In this document: positions 16,836 to 31,328 of the stretch, piece after piece
Layout of the letters: each line of letters starts with the position of its first letter
Position numbering within the stretch: position 1 is the first letter of the stretch
IMG/VR virus record: IMGVR_UViG_3300037297_000386
DNA: 64,000 nt
From: a virus
Lineage: Duplodnaviria > Caudoviricetes
Strand: one strand, 5' to 3'
Position numbers and translations under genes: made by a program
The notes under the pieces: generated by a model
Told to the model about the DNA's origin: nothing
Seen by the model: only the letters and a program-made list of their open reading frames with translations
Database searches by the model: none

Positions 16836-18068
16836 TTAAGGACTCCAGTACAAAATACCAATCGTACATTCGCCTGCAGAAACCGAAGTCCAGTCATTAT
16901 CAACTGTTATGGTGACAGTTACTGTTTTAGCTGCATCGTGCCATTTCGTTCCGCTAGGGTCACCCATATCTACGCCCGAAGCATTAGAAGTATATACATC
17001 TGGTGTGCCTGTATTGTATCTATCTACAACTGTACCATCACCTACTTGTATCGTTGCTGTAGAGTTAACTCCACCAGTAAAGCCAGTAAGTGTATGAAGA
17101 ATACACGCAACGACCACTGCGCCATCAGGTATTTGTTCATCTAAGTCTAATGTTCCTACAACTCCTCCACCGTCTGTAAAATCATCGTAGGCTATTGTTT
17201 GATTCACACAGCCAAGACCTGCGCCGTTGCCACCTAAAGCGAGGCGGTTCCAGGTCCACCGCGAATCTTGAGTGCTATCTGTTGCTGGATTTTCGCTTGA
17301 CTTCAATATAATCGTAGGGTCATCTGGTACAGAATAACCATAATTATATTCGTAATACGTCTGACTTCCGACAAGTAAGTGATTCGAACTAGGATGTAGG
17401 AAGAATCCGCCTGGATATGGTGAATATTCTGTAGAAAGGACAAGCCACATTCCCTCAGGACCAACGTATAGTAACTTATTTCTGGTCATGGTTAAATGAT
17501 TATAGAAACCTGTAGCGCTATAGAAAAGGGCATAATCATCAAAACTTGCAACCCCATCAACTTCTAACTTTCCGCCAATAAGTACATCTTCAGTAGTAAG
17601 TGAACGACTTGTAACCGCAGATTTTCCAAGGTTTAATGGTCCTGCGCCGTCAAAAATACGTCCATCTATTCTTAGATTTAATGCACCAGCACTTTCATCA
17701 GTAAGAGTTAACTGACCATCAGTAGTAGTATCAAAGATTACTCCTTGGTCGCCAGCGCTGTTGGATATTATTAGTTTACCTTCGGAATCGGATGTAAGCC
17801 ATGTATCATGTAATTTAACACCAGTCCCGCCAATCTCTAATCTGTTTGTTTCACGGTTCCACTTTAGGTCATTGTCACCAGCTATAGTGGGAGTGCCTGT
17901 GAAGAAAGCAACGTAACCATCGGCACCATAACCAGATATATTGCCATAACCATCTAAACCTTTTAATATATCCTGTATTGCCTCAGAATGTTGACTGTAA
18001 TGTTCAGACACTGTTGTATCTAAAACATTACTAGAAGATCCTGTAACAATTTTAATAAATCCAGACAT
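16836..18068 (-). CDS. Virion fibre/spike-like structural protein, 410 aa
   Basis: Gly/Thr-rich beta-strand fibre-like repeats (YVAFFTG...IAGDNDLKW) and a C-terminal jelly-roll-like domain (IPDGAVVV...TIQVGD...AGECTIGILY). Confidence 0.55.
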   Translation of the reverse strand: MSGFIKIVTGSSSNVLDTTVSEHYSQHSEAIQDILKGLDGYGNISGYGADGYVAFFTGTPTIAGDNDLKWNRETNRLEIGGTGVKLHDTWLTSDSEGKLIISNSAGDQGVIFDTTTDGQLTLTDESAGALNLRIDGRIFDGAGPLNLGKSAVTSRSLTTEDVLIGGKLEVDGVASFDDYALFYSATGFYNHLTMTRNKLLYVGPEGMWLVLSTEYSPYPGGFFLHPSSNHLLVGSQTYYEYNYGYSVPDDPTIILKSSENPATDSTQDSRWTWNRLALGGNGAGLGCVNQTIAYDDFTDGGGVVGTLDLDEQIPDGAVVVACILHTLTGFTGGVNSTATIQVGDGTVVDRYNTGTPDVYTSNASGVDMGDPSGTKWHDAAKTVTVTITVDNDWTSVSAGECTIGILYWSP

Positions 18069-18080
18069 TGTATTTCTCCA

Positions 18081-18380
18081 TTATCCCCATACTTCCACTC
18101 TTACAATGCAACTTGTGCCGTTAGAAGAAAGTCTCAACCATATTTTACACTCATGTCTATTATCAAACACAATTCCCGCCGATGGAAGATCAGGATCTAA
18201 TGTACCATGTACATTAACACCATCAAAACTATATTCTATAATTCTACCAGATGTAGTATTCTCATTTAACAAAGCTATACCAGCACTATTAAAACCCCAA
18301 GATAATTCGACATCTTCGAACCACACGGATGAGACTGTCACTCTTTCAAAAAAGTTATATTTACTCATCAAGCTCTCCAA
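18081..18380 (-). CDS. Small beta-rich hypothetical (probably structural) protein
   Basis: Clean 99-aa ORF in the structural operon; the true start may be the ATG four codons in. Confidence 0.6.
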   Translation of the reverse strand: MESLMSKYNFFERVTVSSVWFEDVELSWGFNSAGIALLNENTTSGRIIEYSFDGVNVHGTLDPDLPSAGIVFDNRHECKIWLRLSSNGTSCIVRVEVWG

Positions 18381-18477
18381 ACACTATATTATATTTTCTA
18401 TTTAATTTTATAGTCTCGTCTTAATATAGGAAATTAGCTGTAGATTTTTCGACCAAATTTCCTCCGTACTCAAGAAT

Positions 18478-18606
18478 ATATAGTTCCCTAAAATATGGTC
18501 ATTTGTGACCAATAAGTTCTTGGGTAGAGGAGACTATAGGCTTCCTCCTTGAAACATTCCAATAGAAATCTTTCCTATTCCGATGTTCCAATCGTTGCTT
18601 CTGGCT
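18478..18606 (-). repeat. Copy A of a 129-bp inverted repeat / putative structured RNA
   Basis: Reverse complement of 22667-22795 with 8 mismatches, all inside one 19-nt hairpin window; the other 110 nt are identical. Confidence 0.9.
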
Positions 18607-18678
18607 GATTACAAATTATTTATAGAAACCATAAATACTTAATATTACTCATAATATTCTCCTCAAATGTTTTTTCGA

Positions 18679-19530
18679 TTATGACAAGTTAATTGTTTGG
18701 CTTGAATATTTATTATAAATCTTCATAAATCTATCATACTTTCTTTCTAAAAATAAATCAGAATCATTATATAATATATTAAATAAATTTATATTCTTAA
18801 CTATTCCATTAACGGCCACATGGTATATTTTAGAACCATTTCTGTTTATATTATATACTTTGGCATCTATCCCTATCTTATTATATAACGACAATAAATC
18901 GTATGAAAAACCATTGCTTGTTGTAAATATAGTAGTTCGCGGCTTTTTTACTTGAACTGTTCCGTCGCCATCTATAACCCCTCGAAGAAAATCACCAATA
19001 CAGTTATCTGGAATCTTTGGGCACCTAAGTGTTTTAGTCTTTCTTAAAGTCATATTCAAGTTCATTAAATCTTTACATATTTCTTGATTTCTAATAACCA
19101 AACGTGACATATTTTTATTCTCATATATTATATAATTACTGTTCATCTTGTCATTTATTTTTTCAAGTATATATTTATCATCATGTTTAAGTCCCAATGA
19201 TAATATATAATAATCCCTATTCTTACGTTTTGATATACATCCATCAGTTAACAAAAGTCCCAGTATATATGCATTTTCTCTGGTCACAGCGGAAAAATAT
19301 TTAGAGTTAATATTATATTTTTTTGTTTTCCCTGTATTAGATTTCTTATGTAAATAACTTATTATGCTTTCATCTCTCCGTATTTTTAATACTTTATTAC
19401 CATATTGATATATTGCACTCCACTTTCTTCCTAACATTTTTTCTGCTTCTAATGGCATAACTGAAGCAAAATGGCTTTTCATATACTTGGTTTCGTCTTC
19501 AGACCATTTACGTTTCATTAACAGCCACAT
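18679..19530 (-). CDS. LAGLIDADG homing endonuclease, 283 aa
   Basis: AYILGLLLTDGCI and DFLRGVIDGDGTV motifs, with an N-terminal helical DNA-binding-like repeat. Confidence 0.9.
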   Translation of the reverse strand: MWLLMKRKWSEDETKYMKSHFASVMPLEAEKMLGRKWSAIYQYGNKVLKIRRDESIISYLHKKSNTGKTKKYNINSKYFSAVTRENAYILGLLLTDGCISKRKNRDYYILSLGLKHDDKYILEKINDKMNSNYIIYENKNMSRLVIRNQEICKDLMNLNMTLRKTKTLRCPKIPDNCIGDFLRGVIDGDGTVQVKKPRTTIFTTSNGFSYDLLSLYNKIGIDAKVYNINRNGSKIYHVAVNGIVKNINLFNILYNDSDLFLERKYDRFMKIYNKYSSQTINLS

Positions 19531-19540
19531 CCTAATATTA

Positions 19541-20425
19541 TCATATTATCCGACGTTCTCTCAAATGTCGGAGGCGCAAATATGCTGGACTTATTGCTGT
19601 AACGCGAAATGTGCCGAGACCAAGAGGGTTTGGTTTAAGTGAACATTTTATCATTTTCAATTTTTCTTTATAATCCTGCAGTTGTGTACTATATTGCGTA
19701 TTTAATATTTCAGACACAGCTGGCGGCTGATAGGTTACGCCATTGTCTGTTATATTAAACTCCCGACCTTTTTCAATAAGCGCCTGAGCGGCAAGGGCCA
19801 ACAAAACAGCACCTTGTACAACTACTTCAGCAAATATTTCGTATATTTGTGGATCAGAAAATTTAAATTGACTAAAATGAGGATATTGGTTGAAACTCGA
19901 TAGACTATTTACTAAAAAACAAATAAGTTCAGTGTCCGTAAATATAGAACAGGGTACATCAACATATTCATTACCGTCTCTTACTTTTCGGGTTCCATCA
20001 TTTTTGACTCTACATTTTACCATTTTCAAAAGTATATTAATCCCATAAACTTCTTCTTTAGTAAAATTCCATGGCACCGGATCTCCAGGTGAAAAAATTG
20101 GTAAATCACTTTCTATAACATCACCAGAAGATATAACCATAAATTCGAAAGTATTCTCTACCTCAGTACCACCAATCTCAGCGACCCACCTGTGATACCA
20201 ATATCCATCCGGCGCATTCTCTGGAATATCATAATTTAAATAATATAATCCATCTTGGTTATCTGAAATCAAACCAACGCCAATATTAGACAACCTTCTT
20301 TGTATTGTTTCAGTAGAATCGTAAATCTCCACCTGAGGTGTATCATCAGCATTAACTGGGTTACCAACTGAATCTACAAATCTCACGTAAAGATCTACAT
20401 CTCTACCACGAATTCCGATGGCCAT
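19541..20425 (-). CDS. Neck/head-tail adaptor protein with N-terminal Ig-like domain, 294 aa
   Basis: N-terminal Ig-like strands (GLYYLNYDIP...GYWYHRW) and a helical C-terminal adaptor-like region (FTDTELICFL...ITDNGVTY). Confidence 0.55.
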   Translation of the reverse strand: MAIGIRGRDVDLYVRFVDSVGNPVNADDTPQVEIYDSTETIQRRLSNIGVGLISDNQDGLYYLNYDIPENAPDGYWYHRWVAEIGGTEVENTFEFMVISSGDVIESDLPIFSPGDPVPWNFTKEEVYGINILLKMVKCRVKNDGTRKVRDGNEYVDVPCSIFTDTELICFLVNSLSSFNQYPHFSQFKFSDPQIYEIFAEVVVQGAVLLALAAQALIEKGREFNITDNGVTYQPPAVSEILNTQYSTQLQDYKEKLKMIKCSLKPNPLGLGTFRVTAISPAYLRLRHLRERRII

Positions 20426-20447
20426 ACAATGTGCCTCCAGCTAGAAT

Positions 20448-21221
20448 TTATTTTTCTTTGCTAGATTTTGGTCTTTTTATAACAACATTTTTATTTTCTT
20501 TTGGTTTATCTTCCTCTCTAATTTCCATAATCACTGAACCATCTTGCGTCTTAACTGCAACTTCATCAACAGATTTTATTTCTTCCTGTACTTCTTGATG
20601 ATTTTTATTATCCGCAATATCGGGGTCGATCACTGTAAACGGCTTTTCTGCAGTTACTACTGAAGATTTTGCAATAGGCCCAATAGGATTTACCATTGCT
20701 TCACGCGTGACTTTCATTACTACCTGTGACTGTTGAGATGTTCCATATTCGATCTCTGGTTTTAAAACAGCATCATCTTTTAATTTTTCTTCTTTTTCCG
20801 ATTTTGTGTTTGTCACTACGGAACCGTTTTCTTGTTTTTCATGTATAACCGGATTAAGATCACCTATACCATAATCAGCAAAATCAAAAACATCATCTTC
20901 ATTCCCACCATCAAAATTTGTCTCGATTACCACAGAGGTCTTAGTTTTTTTTGCATGAACAGTACCATCACTTTGTTTAATACGATTCAAATCTGGCGGA
21001 ACAGGATTAACTTGTTTACGCACAACATGTAATGTGTTAGAATCAAGTCGTCTACGCAAAGATCCATTTTTTATAGACAGATTGACTTGTGCAACAGTTA
21101 TATATGGATTAACCTTATACACATTAACAGTTTTTCCGGCTCGAACTTTAACACCCAAATCACTCAAACTAACATCCGAAGTACCTGGATTGCGCAACCA
21201 TAATTCTTTATTGTCTATCAT
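20448..21221 (-). CDS. Hypothetical protein, 257 aa
   Basis: GGAGG SD, co-directional ORF. Confidence 0.7.
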   Translation of the reverse strand: MIDNKELWLRNPGTSDVSLSDLGVKVRAGKTVNVYKVNPYITVAQVNLSIKNGSLRRRLDSNTLHVVRKQVNPVPPDLNRIKQSDGTVHAKKTKTSVVIETNFDGGNEDDVFDFADYGIGDLNPVIHEKQENGSVVTNTKSEKEEKLKDDAVLKPEIEYGTSQQSQVVMKVTREAMVNPIGPIAKSSVVTAEKPFTVIDPDIADNKNHQEVQEEIKSVDEVAVKTQDGSVIMEIREEDKPKENKNVVIKRPKSSKEK

Positions 21222-21224
21222 ATC

Positions 21225-21470
21225 TTACTCCTTACTTTCTAATACTTCACCTAAAACTTTCACATTGACGGCTTGTGGCCCCTTATGGTTTTCTCCTAAT
21301 TCGAAAGATACTGGTTGCCCTGGTTTTAATGTTTTAAAGCCAGGCATATCAATATTTGTCCAATGTACAAACAAATCTTTTTCACCATTATCTCTTACTA
21401 CATATCCATAACCTCTACGGTGATCAAACCAAGCTACAAGCCCAGTTAAATCATTGCTTAATTCTGTCAT
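21225..21470 (-). CDS. csp: Cold-shock domain protein
   Basis: GLVAWFD..RGYGYV (RNP1), LFVHW (RNP2), GFKTLKPGQPVSFE..GPQAVNV. Confidence 0.95.
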   Translation of the reverse strand: MTELSNDLTGLVAWFDHRRGYGYVVRDNGEKDLFVHWTNIDMPGFKTLKPGQPVSFELGENHKGPQAVNVKVLGEVLESKE

Positions 21471-22351
21471 TTCTTATCTCCTTCTCTCGGGCATTTTGCC
21501 CACTTTTTTAAGTTATCTTCGGCCCACAATGGCTGAAGGTTTGTGTAATTACAGACTTTCTTAACATGCTCTCTATTAGTTAAGTCAAAACTAGATAGTG
21601 GAATAATATGATCTATATGCCACCTTCCATAATTATCCCAGGTCATGCCAATCTCGAATTTCTTTTCAAGATATAATTTTAATTCTTTTATAGAACATCC
21701 AAGATCTGCAACGGCTGAACCAGCACGATATCCTTTTTTAACTGCTTGATAGAACCTAGTTCTAAGTTTTTTCCTGATTTGTGCTGTTATACTGTTTTTT
21801 ATATACCGTTGCTCACGTGCTATTATTTCGTCTCTATTTTCTTTATACCGTTGTCTTTTTTCAGATAATATGCGTTCCTTATTTCTTTCATACCAATTCT
21901 TTTTTCTTTTAGCACATGCTTCTTTGTTTTTCTCGACATACTCTTTTTGTTTTATGGTCAATCTTGCCTTATTTTTCTCTCGATATTTTTTACTACCATT
22001 TTTTATAGATTCTTTGTTGTTTTCCCTATATTTTTTACAGCGGTCCTTATTCTTAGTGTGCCATTCAGCACTTTCTTTGCGTCTGCAATACTTACAACGG
22101 CTCTTTAACCCATCTTTAGTATTTTTACATCTACCAAAATTATCAACATCCAAAATTTTCATACATCTGCGACATTGTTTTTTATCATCTGAGTCTTGAT
22201 ATTCTATTTTGTTTGGGCCTTCTTTTTTCCATTTTTTAATATAATCGCGATGGCAATTTTTACATTGATTTCTAAGACCACTCGGACTGTCTTTTCGTCG
22301 ATAAAATCTAGAAAAATCTTTTAATTCTCCGCATTTACTACATTTCTTCAT
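21467..22351 (-). CDS. HNH homing endonuclease with two N-terminal CxxC zinc-binding repeats, 294 aa
   Basis: CSKC..CKNC and CRRC..CKYC repeats; C-terminal WHIDHIIP...NYTNLQPLWAEDN HNH motif. Confidence 0.9.
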   Translation of the reverse strand: MKKCSKCGELKDFSRFYRRKDSPSGLRNQCKNCHRDYIKKWKKEGPNKIEYQDSDDKKQCRRCMKILDVDNFGRCKNTKDGLKSRCKYCRRKESAEWHTKNKDRCKKYRENNKESIKNGSKKYREKNKARLTIKQKEYVEKNKEACAKRKKNWYERNKERILSEKRQRYKENRDEIIAREQRYIKNSITAQIRKKLRTRFYQAVKKGYRAGSAVADLGCSIKELKLYLEKKFEIGMTWDNYGRWHIDHIIPLSSFDLTNREHVKKVCNYTNLQPLWAEDNLKKWAKCPREGDKK

Positions 22352-22454
22352 GATTTTCCTCTTTATTAGAAAAATAGACCAATCCCTACATCTTAAATCA
22401 AAATATTAATAGAATTCTTAGATATTTCGACAGGTAGCATCCTTTCATCCTCCG

Positions 22455-22666
22455 ATGCTAGCTCTAAAAGGATTGAAATAGCGCTTTTGATCGTTGAATA
22501 TCCGACTGACCAGAAATTATATAATCAGCACTACCGCTAAATTTGCTTATTATTTTGGCACGCTTTTTACGCACAAATGATCCCTCCATTTTAAGGTACA
22601 CTAATGCCGAAGTGCGATTCGGATTATAACGCTGCCTGTAATATCGCTACGCCGTTGATGGCTATT
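22455..22666 (+). pseudogene. Eroded Cas12f/TnpB-like C-terminal relic
   Basis: GAT TCG GAT TAT AAC GCT GCC TGT AAT ATC GCT ACG CCG encodes DSDYNAACNIATP. Upstream, broken frames give ALKGLK*RF..EY..TDQK (cf. GI.V..V.P.YTSQ) and HFK..C. Confidence 0.55.
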
Positions 22667-22795
22667 AGCCAGAAGCAACGATTGGAACACAAAAATAGAA
22701 AAGGCTTTTATTGGAATGTTTCAAGGAGGAAGCCTATAGTCTCCTCTACCCAAGAACTTATTGGTCACAAATGACCATATTTTAGGGAACTATAT
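22667..22795 (+). repeat. Copy B of the 129-bp inverted repeat / putative structured RNA
   Basis: 121/129 identical to the reverse complement of 18478-18606. Confidence 0.9.
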
Positions 22796-22809
22796 TGGTG
22801 ATTTTTAGC

Positions 22810-23205
22810 TTAGATTGCAGCTAAATAAGAAATTAAATAAGAAGTTCTTAGAGATGAAATATCTCCATGCTCTGTATTGGTGGGCTCTAATAAAACTGTT
22901 CTTGCCGTAGGTATGCCAGTATAAGAATAATTTGACCGATGCGAATGATAGCGATCTTGGTTAGATAACCTATTTAAAAAATAAGTTAATTCTATATGAT
23001 TAAGTTTGCTATTAATTATTATATCGTCGCGCTGTTTGCATATATTAGCAGGTTTATGTTTCAATGAAGCAATAACTATTGGCACATAATTATCACACAA
23101 ACAACTATTTTTGTCTCTAACTATTTTAAATCCTTGAAAAAAATATAATTTTCCTAGGCCGTATTTCTTTTTAATCTTTTTTATAAGTTTATTTTTATAT
23201 TTCAT
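22810..23205 (-). CDS. Tandem paralogue family member 6 (hypothetical)
   Basis: KKKYGLGKLYF...LxYFLNRL...LRTSYLISYLAAI. Confidence 0.7.
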   Translation of the reverse strand: MKYKNKLIKKIKKKYGLGKLYFFQGFKIVRDKNSCLCDNYVPIVIASLKHKPANICKQRDDIIINSKLNHIELTYFLNRLSNQDRYHSHRSNYSYTGIPTARTVLLEPTNTEHGDISSLRTSYLISYLAAI

Positions 23206-23210
23206 AAAAT

Positions 23211-23579
23211 TTAAATACCAGATAAATTTATTACTAATAGGTCATGCCTTAAATCATTCAAATTATTATAGTTTTTCCCTAAATCTGAAAAATATATTTT
23301 TTCTTTACCTTTAGACAAATTTTTAAGAACCATGTTTAAATTATGCGAATTTAGATTGTTATCAGTAATATTCTTTGTTGTACTGCACACTAAACTGCAT
23401 AATAAATCATTAAATCCGGATAAAGATCCATATCCATCAAATCCAAGATATTTGTATGTAAAATACAAATTTTCTACTCCATAATGTCTTTTTATACCAT
23501 CACATACTGCTTCGTTGACTTCATCGATCGTAAAATTACCATTTGCTATACCATTTCTAATGTCTTCTAAACTATCCAT
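23211..23579 (-). CDS. Tandem paralogue family member 5 (hypothetical)
   Basis: KRHYGVENLYF...IYFSDLGKNYNNLNDLRHDLLVINLSGI. Confidence 0.75.
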   Translation of the reverse strand: MDSLEDIRNGIANGNFTIDEVNEAVCDGIKRHYGVENLYFTYKYLGFDGYGSLSGFNDLLCSLVCSTTKNITDNNLNSHNLNMVLKNLSKGKEKIYFSDLGKNYNNLNDLRHDLLVINLSGI

Positions 23580-24585: not shown

Positions 24586-24857
24586 AGTCCAGCCAACTTT
24601 ATTATTAAATAATGTCTTTTTAATTCATCGATACCAATACATAATTTACTGGCATCTTTGAAGTAAACAGATCCTTGTTGCATACTAAGTGCTTTTAATA
24701 TCCAATCTAAATCAATCATTTTAATATTATCATCAAAATCTGGTCTATTACCTATGTATTCGCATTCTATGACTTTTTTAGAAGCATCAAAGGACATACA
24801 TTCGAGACCATAAGCTTTTTTAAGTTGATATTTAGGTGTCATCTGTTGATTTTTCAT
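24582..24857 (-). CDS. Tandem paralogue family member 1 (hypothetical)
   Basis: KKAYGLECMSF...VYFKDASK...DELKRHYLIIKLAGL. Confidence 0.75.
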   Translation of the reverse strand: MKNQQMTPKYQLKKAYGLECMSFDASKKVIECEYIGNRPDFDDNIKMIDLDWILKALSMQQGSVYFKDASKLCIGIDELKRHYLIIKLAGL

Positions 24858-27046
24858 TATATTATTTTGTAAAAATTAATTGGTTCTAATTTAGGTGTCT
24901 TATTTTTTGTAAAATGTGATTTTCTAGTTACCAAGTTCCACGAATCTACCAAACGGAATCCCTCTTCTTTTACTATATTATTTATATCATTGTGTATTTT
25001 CGTCATTTTTTTATTAGCAAAGTTTCCAGCATTAACAGCAAAAACGCCATTCTTTGCTAATGATCTCTTTATGTATTTTACAGTAATTCTCCAATAATTG
25101 TTAAGCCAATCTTCATAATCGGGGAATTTGTTATAACTTTGGGTATCTTCGTCAGTATAAATTTCATGATCATAATATGGAGGACTACTGAATGCAAAAT
25201 TTATATCGCAATCTGGTATAAAATTTTCCGATGGAACATTATATATATCAGCATTAATATTAAAATCATCGCACATTTTAATTAAACATTTATAAGTTTC
25301 AGTATTTGGGTCAGTTCCTATATATTTAGCTTTTACTCCGCTTGCATAAAATCCTAATAGTCTACCACCATATCCAGCACTATAGTCATAAACAATATCA
25401 CCGTCTTTGACCCAATGGGAATAAATTTCTTTGGCAACAGATGCTTTAAAAACAGATCCAGTTGCAGCCAACCCAGATGATTTTGCTCCTTGTGCTATCA
25501 TGGCTGGATGTATATTAAAATATTCAACACCATTTTTGTTTTTTATTCCGCTAATCCTATTTGTTATTATTTGTTCTAAGCTGTTTTTGTTAGTTATACA
25601 GTTATAAACGGATGGTTTTTTCTTAGTAGATAGTTTTAAAATGTTAGCAAAATAGCTTTTACATAATTTAGCACCAGCGTTATTATTGTTTGATAATTGT
25701 TTATTAGCTAGATCTAAACAGGAAGCGTTCAATAAGGCTTTCAAATCTTTTTTGATTATTTCTGTTTCCAATACTATATTAGAAAAATCATAATTAGAAA
25801 ATAATTCTAATAAATAATGTTTTATTTTATTTCTTGTTGTATTATTGGTCTTGCGTATAAATTCACTGGTTAATTTTTGTCCATTCCATACTACCACATC
25901 ATGAAAATGTTTAGGTTTATATATAATAATATCATGAACAGATTTTTTAATATTTCTATCAAATTTGACTATTTTTATATTAAAATTGTTGTTTTTGTAA
26001 TATTCTATTTTCTCGTTATCATCAGAATAAGAGTTAGTACGATTTTTACCCATTCCACCTGCTTCAATCCAAATTTTATGTTTGCCTGTACGAACCAAAA
26101 AATCACAAGACCAGTTTCTATTTTCACATATAGGAACCTCATATTTATAATCATCTATTATATATTTATTTTTAAATTCTAGAAGACAGTTTGCAACATT
26201 GGCTTCAAATTTAGACCTATAAATATTTCCATCATTTCCTACAACCGAAACGCTATTTCTCCACTGATTTTGTGCTGTATAATTAAATCCTAGAAATTTT
26301 AAAGCTTTTAAATAAGTCCCAAATCTGCCAGCATAAGTTTCTGCAGAAAATTTTCCATAATCTGCCATATCTTTATAATTAGGAACATGGCCTAATTCAT
26401 CTCTAAGGCGTATAATTTCATTTTTAAGATCTTCTTTTGGTATATTTTTAAGTGTTTGTGGTTCAAGTCCGCAAATTTCTAGCGTTTTATTCCAACTATC
26501 ACTATTAGATATTTTGTGACATGCTGTGACCCAAGAGCAAGTAGTAGAATATTCAGCAAAATCTGAAATAGTAGGAATTTTACCAAGTATTTTACTAACC
26601 CTTATTATATCTTTTATTATTTCTTCTTTAATATAGAGCATATTTAAATTATATGTATTATCCAAATTACACGAACCAACAGCAATACTAAATTTTCCAA
26701 AGGCTCTTTTATAAGCTCCAATAGGATACTTACCATGTTTACTAATTTCTGTCTGTGAAGGAACATGCCCTATATCTTTGTATACTCTTAATAATTCATC
26801 TAACAATTCTTGTTTAGAATATTTCATATCGGATCCAGATTTATTGGCATCTAGTTCGGCCTTTGTTTGTGCATTTTTTAGCTTACCAAATCTTTTTCTA
26901 TACAAGTGTACCCTTTTCGTTAAAAAACACCCATATTTTTTCATATCAGAACTACTGGGTGTTCTATTTAATTTAGTTGCGAGCTTTTTTAAAGCATCTA
27001 TTAATTGTTTATCAGTAATGGTTTTTGGATTAAAACTTTTTGTCAT
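24857..27046 (-). CDS. Fusion: homing-endonuclease-associated helical repeats + PD-(D/E)xK-like nuclease + amino-DNA methyltransferase, 729 aa
   Basis: Four repeats of type KxELxxELxRxxxxLGxxP(S/T)xxD...YxxxFG; YRSKFEANVA...CDFLV...IWIEAGG; MTase motif I VYDYSAGYGG and motif IV FSSPPY. Confidence 0.8.
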   Translation of the reverse strand: MTKSFNPKTITDKQLIDALKKLATKLNRTPSSSDMKKYGCFLTKRVHLYRKRFGKLKNAQTKAELDANKSGSDMKYSKQELLDELLRVYKDIGHVPSQTEISKHGKYPIGAYKRAFGKFSIAVGSCNLDNTYNLNMLYIKEEIIKDIIRVSKILGKIPTISDFAEYSTTCSWVTACHKISNSDSWNKTLEICGLEPQTLKNIPKEDLKNEIIRLRDELGHVPNYKDMADYGKFSAETYAGRFGTYLKALKFLGFNYTAQNQWRNSVSVVGNDGNIYRSKFEANVANCLLEFKNKYIIDDYKYEVPICENRNWSCDFLVRTGKHKIWIEAGGMGKNRTNSYSDDNEKIEYYKNNNFNIKIVKFDRNIKKSVHDIIIYKPKHFHDVVVWNGQKLTSEFIRKTNNTTRNKIKHYLLELFSNYDFSNIVLETEIIKKDLKALLNASCLDLANKQLSNNNNAGAKLCKSYFANILKLSTKKKPSVYNCITNKNSLEQIITNRISGIKNKNGVEYFNIHPAMIAQGAKSSGLAATGSVFKASVAKEIYSHWVKDGDIVYDYSAGYGGRLLGFYASGVKAKYIGTDPNTETYKCLIKMCDDFNINADIYNVPSENFIPDCDINFAFSSPPYYDHEIYTDEDTQSYNKFPDYEDWLNNYWRITVKYIKRSLAKNGVFAVNAGNFANKKMTKIHNDINNIVKEEGFRLVDSWNLVTRKSHFTKNKTPKLEPINFYKII

Positions 27047-27153
27047 ACTATCCTCTCTATATCAAGCCGGCCAGTCTCTTTCTAGCTGGACGGGTTATCA
27101 CTATAATACACAAAAATACACAAAATAAATTAGTAGAAGTGTGTGAAATATCC

Positions 27154-27181
27154 AAAAAAAGAGGGCCCTTTTTGGGCCCTC
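27154..27181 (-). terminator. Rho-independent terminator after the major capsid gene
   Basis: GAGGGCCC-AAAAA-GGGCCCTC followed by T7 on the minus strand. Confidence 0.9.
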
Positions 27182-27221
27182 AATTTATTCTAAGTAATCA
27201 ATTTTACTTAACTTTTAGTTC

Positions 27222-30200
27222 TTAACCAACGGCTACATCTTTACGACCAACTGATACACCGCGTGGATTTACAATCCCGATACCAATGATCTCGTTGACT
27301 ACCCAGCCTAATTTCAGCTGCTTCGGCTCGTCGGCTGGTAGAACTTCGATGTCTTGACGAACTGGCATTACACCAACAAATTCTGGATCAGCTACACCGA
27401 AAACAGTACCAGTTGGAACAACCTTACTAACGATAAGGTCGGCACCCCATAGATGTGCGAAAAGACCAGTCTGAAGAATTTCGCGCTGAGTGACCATATC
27501 TAGCTCACCGCCAGTTCCTGCAGACTGTCCACCACCGGAACCCCAGTTTAGAATATCATTAAATTCAACAATATTCATTAGGAACTTGGTTGTAACAAGG
27601 TCCCATCGATCTACCTGAACTTTGATTTCTGAAAGATCACGCTTTAGTAACCCAGCATCAGCAATATCCTGAGCGGTATTTTCGCCACCAAGATTTGAGT
27701 CACCAGCATAATCCAAAGCTGAGAAAATGTTAGCATCTTCTTGTGCTTGAATTTCTTGCAATTTGTTAATAGTTTTTATAAACTTACCAAATCATTTCTG
27801 TTTGGTTCTACACCTTTCGGTATAGTTCAGACTGTATCATCATCTTCTTTAGAAGAGCTTGGCATATCAGTCGTTGAGAATTGGAGTAATTTATATTTCA
27901 TACAATCTATAACATATGGTTTTATAAGTTTTGTAAGCTTAATGCCATTTTTTTTATTAAATGATAAATAATAATATTTTTTATTCCTATTATTATATTC
28001 ACATACTTTAGAACTTATATTAAAATTTACATATATGGCGTTTTGTAACCTATAGTTTTCTTCTTTTGTGAATCCCTCTGTAGATAATTTCATATCATAC
28101 TTTCTGGTATGTCCATCATCCATATACCAAATTGCCATCGCATAGGCCGAAAGCATATTTGATATATTCTTTTTTATAACCTTTTTTGTATTATCATAAA
28201 ATAATTTATGTAAATAATTTAATTCATGATGACAGATAGTAGTTAAATTGTATGTGACAGAATTCCTTGAATTCTGTTGTACATTCTGTCGTATCTTGTT
28301 CACAAAATTATTAAGCACCTGTTTTTTATAATGCAAGTATGGTAATTGTTTTTTACAATGATTAACAACAAATCTTTTTGTCTTACCATTATCTATATGT
28401 CCATCACCAAGCAAAGAACCAATTATAAACTCTTTCTGTTTTCGTGTGAATGGAATTTTGCGTAAATGATAATATTTTCTTTCTACACTTCTTATCGGTT
28501 TTATTCCATATTCTCTAAACCATCTATAAATTGTTCTTTCTCCGACTCCATAATATTCTGCTAAAACCTTTATTCCTTTGTGTGTAGTTTCATATGCATG
28601 TATCAATTCGCTCTTACAAGGTATTTTCCTTTTGCACACATATCCTCTTGATTCTATACCAAATTTTTTGAACCACTTTCTAACAGTTTTAACGCTCACT
28701 CCATAATAATCACCAATTTGTTGCATTGTTTTCATCTGATTATTGTACAAATCACACAGATTTTCTTTTGTAGGCACTTTGGATTACTCCTTTTCTGCTG
28801 ATTGCCCGTATCATTTAATTATTTTTAACTTAGTTTGATTGTAAATTATATTTCAATATAAATTATTTATGACTAAGTATAATTAACATTCGGGGTTTCC
28901 AGCATATAGCCAAGTTTAGAGCCCGCCGGAAATTAACGGGCTTTTTGCTGAGCACGGTCAATTACATTAAATCGACGCCTTTTAACTTCAGCAATACGAA
29001 CGGTCGGGTTAGAAACAACCTCGAATTCTGGAACACTTACACGATCTGAAAATGCACGTGATTCAGGAGCAGAACCGTTACTAGAAATAACAACGGCTGC
29101 CACATCGATATCTCTATCGTAGACAGGTAAAGCACCTTGTGGTACAATTTGTTACTCATCGTTAAGATGGGCCGAATCATCTCTGTTCGGCTCTACATAT
29201 CTCTATGTAGTTCAGACTATATCATCACCTCTTTTTGAGGGTTTAGCATTTAGTCGTTGAGGGACGGCAAAATTTTATACATAAAATCTTTCAGTATATA
29301 TTGCCTAACCAAGTTAGATAACAATTGTGAGTTTCTCTTGTTGATTGATATATAATAGTATTCTTTCTGGTTTCTATTATATTTTGCAATTTTAGATCTC
29401 ACATTAAATTTTGATTTCAGCATACTCTGTAAAATCAACTGTTCTTTGTACGAGAAACTATCAGTCGAAAGCCTTATGTTACACCTATTGTTTAGTGTTC
29501 CGTCATCCATTATCCAATATGCTAAAGATCTTTCAGTTACATAATTGGATAGCTCTTGACGAATTACTTTTTTGTTATTTTCATAAAACAAGTGTCTAAA
29601 GAATCTGAAATCATTATGTACTACTGTGACAAAAGAATACATTACAGAATTTTTTCTTTTATCTTCCTTCTTGTTTATAGAATTAACTAAATTCCCAAGA
29701 ATTGCCTTCTTGTGTAACACCAATGATTTTTGTTTTTCGCAATGTCCTATTTGAAGCCTACAACTTTTGTTCTTTCTTCCATGTTCACCAACAAATCCAT
29801 CGCCAAGAAGAGTTCCAACAACCATCTCTTTTTGCTCTTTTGTAAGTGGGACTTTCTTAATTAGTTCATATTTTCTTTGTTTCGGATTAGCATCAATATT
29901 TAGAATATAGAACCATCGATTAATAGTCTTTCGACTAACCTGATATATCTCTGCTATTTCGTAAGTTGTAAGTCTTCTATCAACATAAAGTTTTATCAAC
30001 TCGTTTCTGCTTGGTCTCTTCATTCTACCTTCCCTGCTGATTGTCTGCGTATCAAAAGTTTTAACTTAGGTACTGTTTTAGATTATCTTCTGTGAGTAAT
30101 CTGTATTTTCCTAAGTATTTCGATCTTCCAGACTTCCCAGCATACAGCCAAATTTTTCCTAAAATATTGCTATTTTAGGCCGCTACCGTTAACGGATCCA

Positions 30201-30471
30201 CAACTAGAACTCTACGTCCAACGCCTTGATAATCTAAGTTTCTACGAATTGGATTAGCCATAGCTTGGCCTAATGCAACCTTACCTTCCGTGGTCATTAG
30301 AGCCCTACGAATTAGCTCATCTTTTTGCTCTTCTGTAAAAGAAGGCTGGCCAGCAAGACCCTGACTGGCCGATTGGTTATTCTGAATAATACTAGCATAC
30401 TTTACGATTTGTGCTAATGCATCGCGATCGCTAGCAGCATTCAGCTCACCATGGGTATTAAACAATGACAT
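27222..30471 (-). CDS. Major capsid protein (HK97 fold), spliced from three exons: 30471-30192, 29144-28936, 27758-27222 (341 aa)
   Basis: Exons of 280+209+537 nt join in frame as ...VVDP-L-PQGALPVYDRDID...RAQQKAR-QEIQAQEDANIF...; strong AGGAGG SD; lies downstream of the protease/scaffold and decoration genes and is followed by a strong terminator. Exon 2 is missing from the ORF track. Confidence 0.9.
27759..28935 (-). mobile_element. Group I intron 2 in the major capsid gene
   Basis: 5' exon ends in U with P1 GCCCGU/GCGGGC; P10 AAUUUC/GAAAUU; P4 UGCUG/CAGCA; P7 CAACGACUG/CAGUC; ends AACAAAUUG (omega-G). Confidence 0.92.
27827..28777 (-). CDS. Intron-encoded LAGLIDADG endonuclease with two N-terminal HTH repeats
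   Basis: FIIGSLLGDGHI and MAIWYMDDGH motifs. Confidence 0.9.
   Translation of the reverse strand: MPTKENLCDLYNNQMKTMQQIGDYYGVSVKTVRKWFKKFGIESRGYVCKRKIPCKSELIHAYETTHKGIKVLAEYYGVGERTIYRWFREYGIKPIRSVERKYYHLRKIPFTRKQKEFIIGSLLGDGHIDNGKTKRFVVNHCKKQLPYLHYKKQVLNNFVNKIRQNVQQNSRNSVTYNLTTICHHELNYLHKLFYDNTKKVIKKNISNMLSAYAMAIWYMDDGHTRKYDMKLSTEGFTKEENYRLQNAIYVNFNISSKVCEYNNRNKKYYYLSFNKKNGIKLTKLIKPYVIDCMKYKLLQFSTTDMPSSSKEDDDTV
29145..30191 (-). mobile_element. Group I intron 1 in the major capsid gene
   Basis: P1 CCGU/GCGG; P10 GGUA/UACC; UAUGCUGGGAA ... AAUCAGCAGG; UCAACGACUA ... GAUAUAGUCU; ends AACAAAUUG. Confidence 0.92.
29250..30023 (-). CDS. Intron-encoded LAGLIDADG endonuclease with N-terminal HTH
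   Basis: MVVGTLLGDGFV and LAYWIMDDGT motifs. Confidence 0.9.
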   Translation of the reverse strand: MKRPSRNELIKLYVDRRLTTYEIAEIYQVSRKTINRWFYILNIDANPKQRKYELIKKVPLTKEQKEMVVGTLLGDGFVGEHGRKNKSCRLQIGHCEKQKSLVLHKKAILGNLVNSINKKEDKRKNSVMYSFVTVVHNDFRFFRHLFYENNKKVIRQELSNYVTERSLAYWIMDDGTLNNRCNIRLSTDSFSYKEQLILQSMLKSKFNVRSKIAKYNRNQKEYYYISINKRNSQLLSNLVRQYILKDFMYKILPSLND

Positions 30472-30509
30472 GATTTTATGTCCTCCTGATATTATTTTTT
30501 TGCTATAAT

Positions 30510-31328
30510 TTATACAGCATTAATCTTTTCAAAGTCGGTATTACCGACAGGTTCACGAATTTGAAAATCGTTACACAATTTGTATCTCATGCTTTCTATA
30601 ACATAGAATCTTATTATATCTTGCATCTTTTTGGTTTCCTTAGAACTCAACCAAAGTCTATGAGTATTTTTATATGATACTATATTAGCATTTAAACTAA
30701 AATTATTCTTAAGCATCTTCATTAATTTAACATGTTCATCTCGTGTAAAACAATCTGTACACATGTAGGTGCTTTTATTTCTTAAAGAATATGTTCCATC
30801 CTCCATGAACCAAACAGCTAACGATATTTTTTCTGTAAATATATGGTCTATAGAATCTGGCACAATTTTCTTTCCGCTAGCATTATAAAAAGTTTTTCTA
30901 AAATAGTTTAATTCAGGAACAGATAAGGTGCTAAAATTATAAAATACATAACTTTTGTCATATTTTTTATTATAAGCGACTTGTTTGCTAATATTAGATC
31001 CCAAATCATCAAATATATCTTTAATCCAATGTATATAATCTTTCTGCTTTATAGAATGACTTGTCTTATAACTAGAAGTTCTATTATTACATTTTGTTAT
31101 GTGCCCGTCGCCAAGTAAAGACCCGATTAAAAAATTTCTTTGATAATCATTTAATTGTCTGTTTTCAACTATATCTCTTTTTTTCTGAAATCTGGTTTTT
31201 ATATCAAATTTCTTGAGTGCCTTACACACCGTACTTCTATGAACGCCCATTTCTTTAGCTATTTCATATGTACTTTTCAATTGGTCAACATATAGCTTTT
31301 GTATAAATTCTTTATTAATTTTTTCCAT
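30510..31328 (-). CDS. Free-standing LAGLIDADG endonuclease with N-terminal HTH
   Basis: FLIGSLLGDGHI and LAVWFMEDGT motifs. Confidence 0.9.
   Translation of the reverse strand: MEKINKEFIQKLYVDQLKSTYEIAKEMGVHRSTVCKALKKFDIKTRFQKKRDIVENRQLNDYQRNFLIGSLLGDGHITKCNNRTSSYKTSHSIKQKDYIHWIKDIFDDLGSNISKQVAYNKKYDKSYVFYNFSTLSVPELNYFRKTFYNASGKKIVPDSIDHIFTEKISLAVWFMEDGTYSLRNKSTYMCTDCFTRDEHVKLMKMLKNNFSLNANIVSYKNTHRLWLSSKETKKMQDIIRFYVIESMRYKLCNDFQIREPVGNTDFEKINAV

What the first reader, a model, noticed from the sequence alone, without database searches (positions are those of the whole stretch)
18478..22795. 129-bp inverted repeat that looks like a structured RNA; one copy carries a LAGLIDADG gene in a stem loop
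Seen: 18478-18606 (-) and 22667-22795 (+) are 121/129 identical. All 8 differences lie in one hairpin window whose stem stays paired. Other helices are UGGAACA/UGUUUCA, AGGAG/CUCCU and UGGUCA-CAAA-UGACCA. Just 5' of copy B is UGGCUA-U-UAGCCA. In copy A the same stem is UGGCUG (19527-19522) ... CAGCCA (18607-18602), a compensatory G-C/A-U swap, with the entire LAGLIDADG ORF in its loop. The motifs AAUCAGCC, GCAACGAUUG and CCUAUAGUCU resemble group I Q/R/S elements, but there is no clear P6 and no interrupted gene. Copy B directly follows a Cas12f/TnpB relic, and the copies diverge sharply after ...AGGGAACUAUAU. Inference: either a minimal group-I-like mobile RNA or an omega-RNA-like scaffold with different downstream guides. 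The pair could also invert the 4-kb neck-gene segment.
Basis: partly seen in the sequence, partly recalled or inferred. Interest (0 to 1): 0.75.

Follow-up and report, generated by a model that had tools for sequence, protein, structure and literature searches.

The report
Leftover TnpB guide-RNA ends in phage
The 130-base inverted repeat is the right-hand end of a jumping gene (the tail of a tnpB nuclease gene, which also encodes its guide-RNA scaffold) kept at two places where the rest of the gene has been lost; it is a real structured RNA of a known kind, not a self-splicing intron.

Summary
Arms 18478-18609 (-) and 22664-22795 (+) are 132 nt and 93% alike. A third copy lies at the start of the phage contig.

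The repeat is the 3' end of a 405-aa TnpB gene of the IS607 lineage, together with its omega-RNA scaffold and the transposon right end.
- Intact paralogues (P0001-P0005) are 80-93% identical to the 54 codons kept in copy B.
- The contig itself ends inside an intact tnpB.
- About 100 related TnpB loci, many on huge-phage contigs, carry the same RNA at the same place.
- Three helices covary (86% of cells paired against 37-51% in slid controls). A variable terminal hairpin is present in each of the 19 homologues folded. Where copy groups could be compared, similarity stops right after AACUAU/AACUGU and the flanks then differ, as expected of a guide.
- One third of the relatives have an IS607 serine transposase just upstream.

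Copies A and B are 5'-truncated. They keep 38 and 54 codons, with no left end and no other TnpB trace. Copy A is cut inside a further conserved hairpin (H0) and carries a change at an otherwise invariant G.

The LAGLIDADG gene is a syntenic resident gene, not an insert in a stem loop. The long-range hexamer stem is likely chance. Nothing supports a group I intron. Inversion could not be tested.

This is a new member of a known kind, of modest interest. Other first-reader notes of this scan on the same genome had already flagged these relics.

The parts
22610..22774 (+). Copy B: last 54 codons and stop of a tnpB gene (RuvC-III motif CDSDYNAACNIA onward). The rest of the gene is missing.
   Evidence: tblastn of P0001-P0005: residues 352-405, 80-93% identity. 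Family protein HMM E 4e-17. nhmmer with the whole-element profile aligns only 22612-22795.
22654..22793 (+). Copy B: complete omega-RNA scaffold. H0 is 22654-22676, H1 (outer and inner stem) 22682-22724, H2 22725-22747, H3 22749-22787, and the conserved 3' tail AACUAU 22788-22793, which is the transposon right end.
   Evidence: CM R1 118 bits. Covariation of H1 and H2. H0 hairpin in 31 of 38 homologues at z<-1.5. An H3 hairpin folds in each of the 19 homologues tested. Right-end boundary after AACTAT in multi-copy groups.
22794..22813 (+). Copy B: presumed guide, the 20 nt that follow the right end (ATTGGTGATTTTTAGCTTAG). It runs into the stop codon of the converging gene 22810-23205 (-).
   Evidence: Flanks differ between copies directly after the scaffold. 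The only exact match in the own contig is itself. Guide function is inferred from the TnpB literature (PMC8612924, PMC10055086).
18480..18609 (-). Copy A: 5'-truncated scaffold. It has the 3' strand of H0, then H1, H2, H3 and the AACUAU tail ending at 18480, and overlaps the last 36-38 tnpB codons (18502-18615). The 5' strand of H0 is missing. It carries G->A (GGC->GAT) at a column that is G in all other homologues.
18460..18479 (-). Copy A: presumed guide (ATATTCTTGAGTACGGAGGA), upstream of ORF 18081-18380.
   Evidence: Inferred as for copy B.
18679..19530 (-). Neighbour, not part of the element: a free-standing LAGLIDADG endonuclease gene (283 aa), 70 nt upstream of copy A.
   Evidence: Pfam LAGLIDADG_3 1.7e-13 and PHROG 4645 3e-38. 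Homologues lie directly after the ORF4 homologue in L026 and L027, with no omega-RNA there.
19522..19527 (-). It is codons 2-3 of the LAGLIDADG ORF and most likely a chance match.
   Evidence: 37 copies of the hexamer in the window. No TnpB sequence lies between the ORF4 stop (19541) and the LAGLIDADG ATG.

Best explanation
The repeat is the right-hand end of an insertion sequence of the IS607 lineage that carries the RNA-guided nuclease gene tnpB.

In this family the last ~50 codons of tnpB also encode the omega-RNA scaffold. The scaffold has four helices, H0 to H3, and ends in AACUAU exactly at the transposon's right end. The 16-20 nt of flanking DNA that follow are transcribed as the guide.

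By analogy with studied TnpB systems, intact copies would work as follows. TnpB binds this RNA and cuts the uninterrupted version of the same site in another genome copy. Repair then copies the element in (homing or retention).

This giant phage carries several intact copies. Copies A and B are copies that lost the left end and almost the whole nuclease gene and kept only 38 and 54 codons with the RNA and the right end.
- They are most likely decaying relics.
- B still has a complete scaffold, so TnpB from the intact copies could use it in trans.
- A is cut inside H0 and mutated at an invariant position.

Shown here: the identity of the sequence, the RNA structure, the right-end boundary, the truncation and the multi-copy state. 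Inferred: transcription, loading on TnpB, cleavage and homing.
For: Identity of the sequence
- ORF 22604-22774 matches the C-terminus of 405-aa PF07282 proteins at 80-93% identity over 92% of its length. P0002 hits Cas12f1-like_TNB at 9.9e-16 and NCBIfam guided_TnpB at 1.6e-21, which is below that model's curated cut-off.
- The own contig ends with residues 1-212 of such a TnpB (99.5% to P0002) and starts with its last 28 residues.
- 21 viral and 80 metagenome loci encode relatives.

The RNA
- A covariance model built on the tails hits every locus searched whose record still holds the 3' end of the gene. It hits only the three copies in the own contig.
- Covariation: 86% of cells paired against 37-51% when slid, and a score of 0.46-0.49 against about 0.1. 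H2 is 98-100% paired, with compensatory changes in 4-6 of its 6 pairs.
- H3 folds in each of the 19 homologues tested, with unrelated sequences. H0 is present in 31 of 38.
- In groups of copies with different flanks, similarity stops right after AACTAT or AACTGT.

IS607 lineage
- An IS607 TnpA (NF033518, 1e-49) lies directly upstream of tnpB in 32 of 101 loci, including the closest relative L039.

Truncation
- Truncation is shown by tblastn, a protein HMM, nhmmer and a test for the left end.
- Summed contig depth over the repeat is 5-27 times that of the flanks in the source metagenome. Loose ends there show other flanks and intact tnpB sequence.
Against: - No RNA data exist, so transcription of any copy is unproven.
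- The TAM of this subfamily could not be defined.
- No IS607 transposase is present in the 162-kb contig, which is about 40% of the genome.
- NCBIfam's IS607_TnpB and IS200_TnpB models match P0002 only far below their cut-offs.
- The RNA does not match Rfam RAGATH-18, the known IS607 reRNA.
- In B, the 3' 186 nt are pristine while nothing recognisable lies upstream. That fits a clean truncation, but it would also fit selection on the RNA.
Confidence: 0.92

Rival explanations
1. The truncated copies are working, non-autonomous guide-RNA genes. They are transcribed, loaded in trans on TnpB made by the intact copies, and direct cutting of related phage genomes that lack the insert at these two sites. 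Each solo RNA would then still drive its own inheritance or serve in phage-phage competition. This would explain why it is always the 3' end that survives.
For: - Every truncated copy seen keeps the right end and its junction with the flank exactly: A, B, the L072 solo copy and the 189-aa P0003.
- B keeps the full scaffold H0-H3, with no difference from A over the last ~100 nt.
- Intact TnpB genes are present in the same genome.
- Use of omega-RNAs from gene-less elements in trans has been proposed for PATEs (PMC10055086, Discussion).
Against: - Truncation points are scattered. A is cut inside H0, and the L072 solo copy inside H1.
- A has a change at a column invariant in about 60 homologues.
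- No promoter-like site lies upstream of B, which is antisense to its neighbours.
- Identity of the 3' part is equally expected from recent origin, since the family's 3' ends are highly conserved between paralogues.
Confidence: 0.2
2. A minimal group I-like intron, or an IStron-type chimera, with the LAGLIDADG gene carried in a peripheral loop.
For: - LAGLIDADG genes often sit in group I introns.
- IS607/IS605 IStrons exist, and their intron 3' part overlaps the omega-RNA (PMC10690162, PMC4227781).
- A hexamer complementary to the 3' strand of H0 lies at the start of the ORF.
Against: - Rfam gives no match at the gathering score or at E up to 10. This is weak evidence, because Rfam is also silent at introns claimed elsewhere in this window.
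- ORF4 ends natively at 19541, as in its homologues, so no gene is split.
- Copy B lies antisense in an intergenic gap.
- All helices are accounted for by the TnpB-linked RNA.
- The left end of the intact copy is only about 85 nt, too short for an intron 5' half.
- LAGLIDADG homologues in L026 and L027 have no such RNA.
Confidence: 0.02
3. The LAGLIDADG gene was inserted into the loop of H0 of a once-complete element, so that H0 still forms over 920 nt (UGGCUG...CAGCCA) and copy A remains a complete RNA.
For: - H0 is a real conserved helix, and the break in A falls exactly in its loop.
- GATG..GGCT precedes both the H0 5' strand in B and the hexamer in A.
Against: - No tnpB sequence lies upstream of the hexamer. 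The ORF4 stop is 11 nt from the LAGLIDADG ATG.
- The hexamer is common: 37 in the window, giving P about 0.2 for one in 920 nt.
- The LAGLIDADG gene is syntenic after ORF4 in relatives that lack the element.
Confidence: 0.04
4. The pair serves as a recombination switch that inverts the 4-kb segment between the arms.
For: About 100 nt of perfect inverted identity is enough for homologous recombination.
Against: - All five genes between the arms run the same way as the flanking genes, and in the same order as in relatives.
- No recombinase gene is nearby.
- The copies are explained as independent transposon ends.
Confidence: 0.04

Closest known systems
TnpB omega-RNA / reRNA of IS200/IS605 and IS607 elements (OMEGA systems; ISDra2, PMC8612924; G. 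stearothermophilus elements, PMC10055086)
   Same: The RNA is encoded over the 3' end of tnpB. It has a structured scaffold that ends at the transposon right end, followed by a variable flank as guide. Most copies lack a transposase. The element is multi-copy, with degraded copies alongside.
   Different: The sequence and helices match no Rfam family. Nothing has been tested biochemically and the TAM is unknown. The host is a giant phage of about 312 kb.
IS607-family TnpB with RAGATH-18-derived reRNA (ISFba1; PMC11061315) and the C. botulinum IS607 IStron TnpB (PMC10690162)
   Same: IS607 serine transposase directly upstream of tnpB in a third of the relatives. TnpB of about 390-405 aa. Guide lies 3' of the scaffold.
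   Different: The ISFba1 reRNA starts 13 nt after the stop codon, has a 187-nt scaffold and contains RAGATH-18. Here the scaffold of about 140 nt lies almost wholly inside the coding end, and Rfam finds no RAGATH-18. There is no group I part, unlike the IStron.
PATEs, gene-less IS200/IS605 derivatives that still encode omega-RNAs (PMC10055086)
   Same: Copies without a nuclease gene that keep the guide-RNA end and would depend on TnpB in trans.
   Different: PATEs keep both left and right ends and can be mobilised. Copies A and B have no left end and look like truncations.

Membership tests
TnpB omega-RNA (OMEGA guide RNA) | Encoded at or over the 3' end of a tnpB gene | tested here: met
   The repeat covers TnpB codons 352/368-405 plus 21 nt. 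The same RNA lies at the 3' end of tnpB in about 95 related loci.
TnpB omega-RNA (OMEGA guide RNA) | Conserved secondary structure supported by covariation | tested here: met
   86% paired against 37-51% slid, and covariation 0.46-0.49 against about 0.1. H3 and H0 are seen by per-sequence folding.
TnpB omega-RNA (OMEGA guide RNA) | Scaffold ends at the transposon right end and is followed by a copy-specific guide | tested here: met
   Copies with different flanks share sequence up to AACTAT or AACTGT and then differ.
TnpB omega-RNA (OMEGA guide RNA) | Transcribed, bound by TnpB, and directs TAM-dependent DNA cleavage | not testable with these tools
   No RNA run holds the stretch. The TAM could not be derived from the left flanks.
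IS607 family | Serine-recombinase TnpA adjacent to tnpB | tested here: inconclusive
   Met in relatives: NF033518 at 1e-49 in L014, and a TnpA upstream in 32 of 101 loci including L039 at 80% aa identity. Not found in the own 162-kb contig, which is about 40% of the genome.
IS607 family | TnpB passes NCBIfam IS607_TnpB (NF038280) | tested here: not met
   29 bits against a cut-off of 350. The IS200_TnpB model also falls far below its cut-off, and even the broad guided_TnpB subfamily scores only 77 bits against a cut-off of 100.
RAGATH-18 reRNA | Match to the Rfam RAGATH-18 model | tested here: not met
   No hit at E up to 10 in 18000-23300, and none at the gathering score in 17 related loci.
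Group I intron / IStron | Catalytic core detectable (Rfam Intron_gpI) | tested here: not met
   No hit. This is weak evidence: Rfam is also silent at 27000-30700, where another note claims capsid introns.
Group I intron / IStron | Interrupts a gene whose exons join in frame | tested here: not met
   ORF4 ends at its native stop, as in L026-L030. Copy B is antisense and intergenic.
PATE-like non-autonomous element | Both left and right ends retained | tested here: not met
   The left end of the intact copy (shared with L040 and L041) is not found beside A or B.

The most novel reading that the evidence does not exclude
In this giant phage the nuclease-less right ends are minimal selfish or weapon elements. 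Each solo omega-RNA borrows TnpB from the intact copies to cut co-infecting relatives at its own site. Only truncations that keep the RNA would then survive. That would make a dispersed, CRISPR-array-like set of guides for phage-phage conflict.
Probability: 0.15. Interest if true: 0.6.

Novelty: new member of a known kind. Interest (0 to 1): 0.33.

Why it matters
This settles an ambiguous structured-RNA call as a TnpB guide RNA. It also documents an omega-RNA subfamily, absent from Rfam, that is common on huge-phage contigs from wetlands, groundwater and lakes.

The scaffold lies inside the coding end of tnpB, so the protein motif NRxGFYW...IVP and the RNA helices constrain the same bases.

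The mix of intact and RNA-only copies in one phage genome gives a concrete system for asking whether phages use TnpB as a homing nuclease, and whether solo guides work in trans. On present evidence the two copies in the finding are ordinary relics.

Tried and rejected
- Phage GenBank (megablast): no match for either copy with its surroundings.
- Exact-pattern scans of IMG/VR with the H2 region and with guide A found nothing.
- The contigs of P0001, P0002, P0004 and P0005 could not be fetched; near-identical records are withheld. The DNA of the intact paralogues, their left ends and any empty sites were therefore not available.
- LAGLIDADG relatives were not found by the pattern scan. They were found instead through the neighbouring ORF4.
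- Pfam on the relic alone gave nothing. PF07282 and PF01385 scans of the contig missed the relics.
- Promoter scan: nothing convincing. H3 is flagged as terminator-like in both copies.
- Sequencing runs: no RNA holder is listed. Only two DNA runs are kept, as contigs, and one may be the source sample. The contigs break inside the repeat and no joints are listed, so neither inversion nor expression could be judged.
- The guides have no second target in the own contig.
- The TAM could not be read from left flanks. Own, L040 and L041 give CTT/GTT/CAT before GGTAT, and other groups differ.
- Another note claims frameshifted TnpB traces upstream of 22600. I found no significant signal with a protein HMM, nhmmer or pairwise DNA (z of 1 or less). 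At most about 25 nt more may be present, with a 14-nt deletion.
- The related viral contigs G001-G005 have at most one copy each, the TnpB-linked one (G005 has none), so solo copies are not general.
Full report
**Observation.**
The inverted repeat is real. Arms 18478-18609 and 22664-22795 are 132 nt long and 93% complementary. They differ at 8 positions, all within about 20 nt, and the last ~100 nt are identical. A third copy, 95% alike, lies at the very start of the phage contig and ends at the same nucleotide. The record is a 162-kb viral contig, estimated to be about 40% complete.

**What the repeat is.**
The plus-strand frame through copy B (22595-22771) was searched against longer proteins.
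- It matched five proteins carrying the TnpB zinc-ribbon domain PF07282 at 80-93% identity: four of 405 aa and a 189-aa truncated form (P0003). The match always falls at their C-terminus.
- tblastn places residues 352-405 at 22610-22771 and residues 368-405 at 18615-18502.
- It also shows that the contig ends with residues 1-212 of such a TnpB (99.5% to P0002) and begins with its last 28 residues.

The repeat is therefore the coding 3' end of tnpB plus 21 nt. Neither a family protein HMM nor an nhmmer profile of whole elements finds any other piece of tnpB near A or B. The left end of the intact copy is absent there too. A and B are 5'-truncated copies.

**The RNA.**
Twenty-one IMG/VR loci and 80 metagenome loci encode relatives at 31-80% identity. 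Many sit on contigs of 100-330 kb.
- An alignment of 19 tails shows two helices with clear compensatory change. The outer stem of H1 varies on both sides in all 6 pairs. H2 is 100% paired, with double changes in 4 of its 6 pairs. The inner stem of H1 (AAUAGA/UCUAUU) is conserved.
- Overall, 86% of cells pair against 40-51% when partners are slid. The covariation score is 0.485 against about 0.1.
- A covariance model built on this alignment hits every related locus searched whose record still holds the 3' end of tnpB. The figures hold on 65 distinct sequences, with the caveat that this alignment is fitted to the model.
- Each of the 19 homologues folded has a last hairpin (H3) of unrelated sequence directly before a conserved (U)AACU(A/G)U.
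- A longer alignment revealed a further hairpin, H0, upstream of H1. It folds at the same place in 31 of 38 homologues at z<-1.5, with a mean z of -2.8.
- Where several copies of one element lie in different contexts, similarity stops right after AACTAT or AACTGT and the flanks are unrelated.

This is the anatomy of a TnpB omega-RNA: a scaffold over the gene's end, ending at the right end, followed by a guide taken from the flank (PMC8612924, PMC10055086).

**Family.**
In 32 of 101 loci, including the closest relative L039 (80% aa), an IS607-type serine transposase lies directly upstream of tnpB. NF033518 scores 1e-49, above its cut-off. None is present in the own contig.

The known IS607 reRNA (ISFba1) starts after the stop codon and contains RAGATH-18 (PMC11061315). 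Here Rfam finds no RAGATH-18, nor anything else, in the window or in 17 related loci. This is a separate omega-RNA subfamily that lies inside the coding end. The conserved peptide NRxGFYW...IVP and helices H1 and H2 share the same bases.

**The eight differences.**
In the tnpB frame they read CAC/CAT, AAA/CGG, AGA/AGG, GGC/GAT and TTT/TTC, which is EHKNRKGFYW against EHRNRKDFYW. The K/R difference exists among intact paralogues. Most of the differences are therefore inherited from different parent copies. The G->A in copy A falls on a column that is G in all of about 60 other homologues, a sign of relaxed constraint.

**The LAGLIDADG gene.**
It is a genuine LAGLIDADG endonuclease gene. Homologues follow the ORF4 homologue directly in the related phages L026 and L027, where the model finds no omega-RNA. 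It is a resident free-standing gene, and copy A lies 70 nt downstream of it.

Copy A's homology begins in the loop of H0, so only the 3' strand of H0 is left. The proposed partner UGGCUG is codons 2-3 of the LAGLIDADG ORF. The ORF4 stop is 11 nt upstream of the ATG, and the hexamer occurs 37 times in the window. I read it as chance, with a small residual probability.

**Group I reading.**
No Rfam match was found. That is weak evidence, because Rfam is also silent at 27-30.7 kb, where another note claims capsid introns. The stronger points are these:
- No gene is split.
- Copy B is antisense and intergenic.
- The left end of the intact copy is too short for an intron half.
- Every helix is explained by the TnpB RNA.

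**Relic or working solo guide.**
For a working guide:
- All truncated copies keep an exact right-end junction.
- B keeps the full scaffold.
- Intact TnpB genes are present in trans.
- Gene-less omega-RNA elements have been discussed before (PMC10055086).

Against it:
- Truncation points are scattered. A is cut in H0. A further inverted solo copy in L072 is cut inside H1. P0003 keeps 189 aa.
- A has the invariant-site change.
- No promoter-like site precedes B.

I put relic at about 0.7-0.8 and trans-acting guide at about 0.2.

**Reads.**
Only contigs of two DNA runs were available. They break inside the repeat and give no joints. Summed depth over the repeat is 5-27 times that of the flanks. 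Loose ends show other flanks and intact tnpB sequence, which confirms many copies in that wetland sample. Inversion remains untested.

**Verdict.**
This is a correct observation of a real structured RNA. It is the omega-RNA and right end of a multi-copy IS607-lineage TnpB element, present here as two truncated copies. It is a new member of a known kind.

Noticed in passing
G000:C1:161779-162414 and G000:C1:1-111 (outside the window): The phage contig ends inside an intact tnpB (residues 1-212, 99.5% to P0002) and begins inside the last 28 codons and omega-RNA of another copy. The assembly therefore broke in this repeat at both ends.
   Followed up: partly
L072:1410-1542 (-) next to L072:1546-2559 (+): A related metagenome contig has an inverted, deeper-truncated solo omega-RNA end abutting a 5'-truncated tnpB (337 aa). 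The two copies differ by compensatory changes in H2 and are identical over the last 70 nt. Outward-facing truncated right ends therefore recur in this family.
   Followed up: partly
window 16836-18380 compared with L027-L029: The 99-aa gene 18081-18380 lies just after copy A. In three related phages its homologue lies upstream of the cold-shock gene. Two of the three junctions of this block interchange coincide with copies A and B, so the element copies may have taken part in the rearrangement.
   Followed up: partly
window 22682-22747 and all related loci: The conserved TnpB C-terminal peptide NRxGFYW...(G)QExIVP is encoded by the same bases as helices H1 and H2 and the UAUAGU loop. This is a clear case of double constraint on protein and RNA.
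   Followed up: partly
window 27000-30700: Rfam finds no group I intron, even at E up to 10, where another first-reader note claims two group I introns in the capsid gene. Either those introns are too divergent for the model or the claim needs checking.
   Followed up: partly
window 21467-22351 (-), 24857-27046 (-), 18679-19530 (-): The region is rich in homing-endonuclease-type genes. It holds an endonuclease VII/HNH-like 294-aa ORF (PHROG 1035), a 729-aa protein with four HNH-associated repeats, and the LAGLIDADG gene, all beside a cold-shock-domain gene (21225-21470).
   Followed up: no
G000:C1:161690-161778, L040:1250-1347, L041:55-150: The left end of this subfamily begins at GGTAT(A/T)(A/G)AATTCTTTTCTAA. 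In the own copy it supplies the last codons and the stop of the upstream gene (…PWYNILF*).
   Followed up: partly
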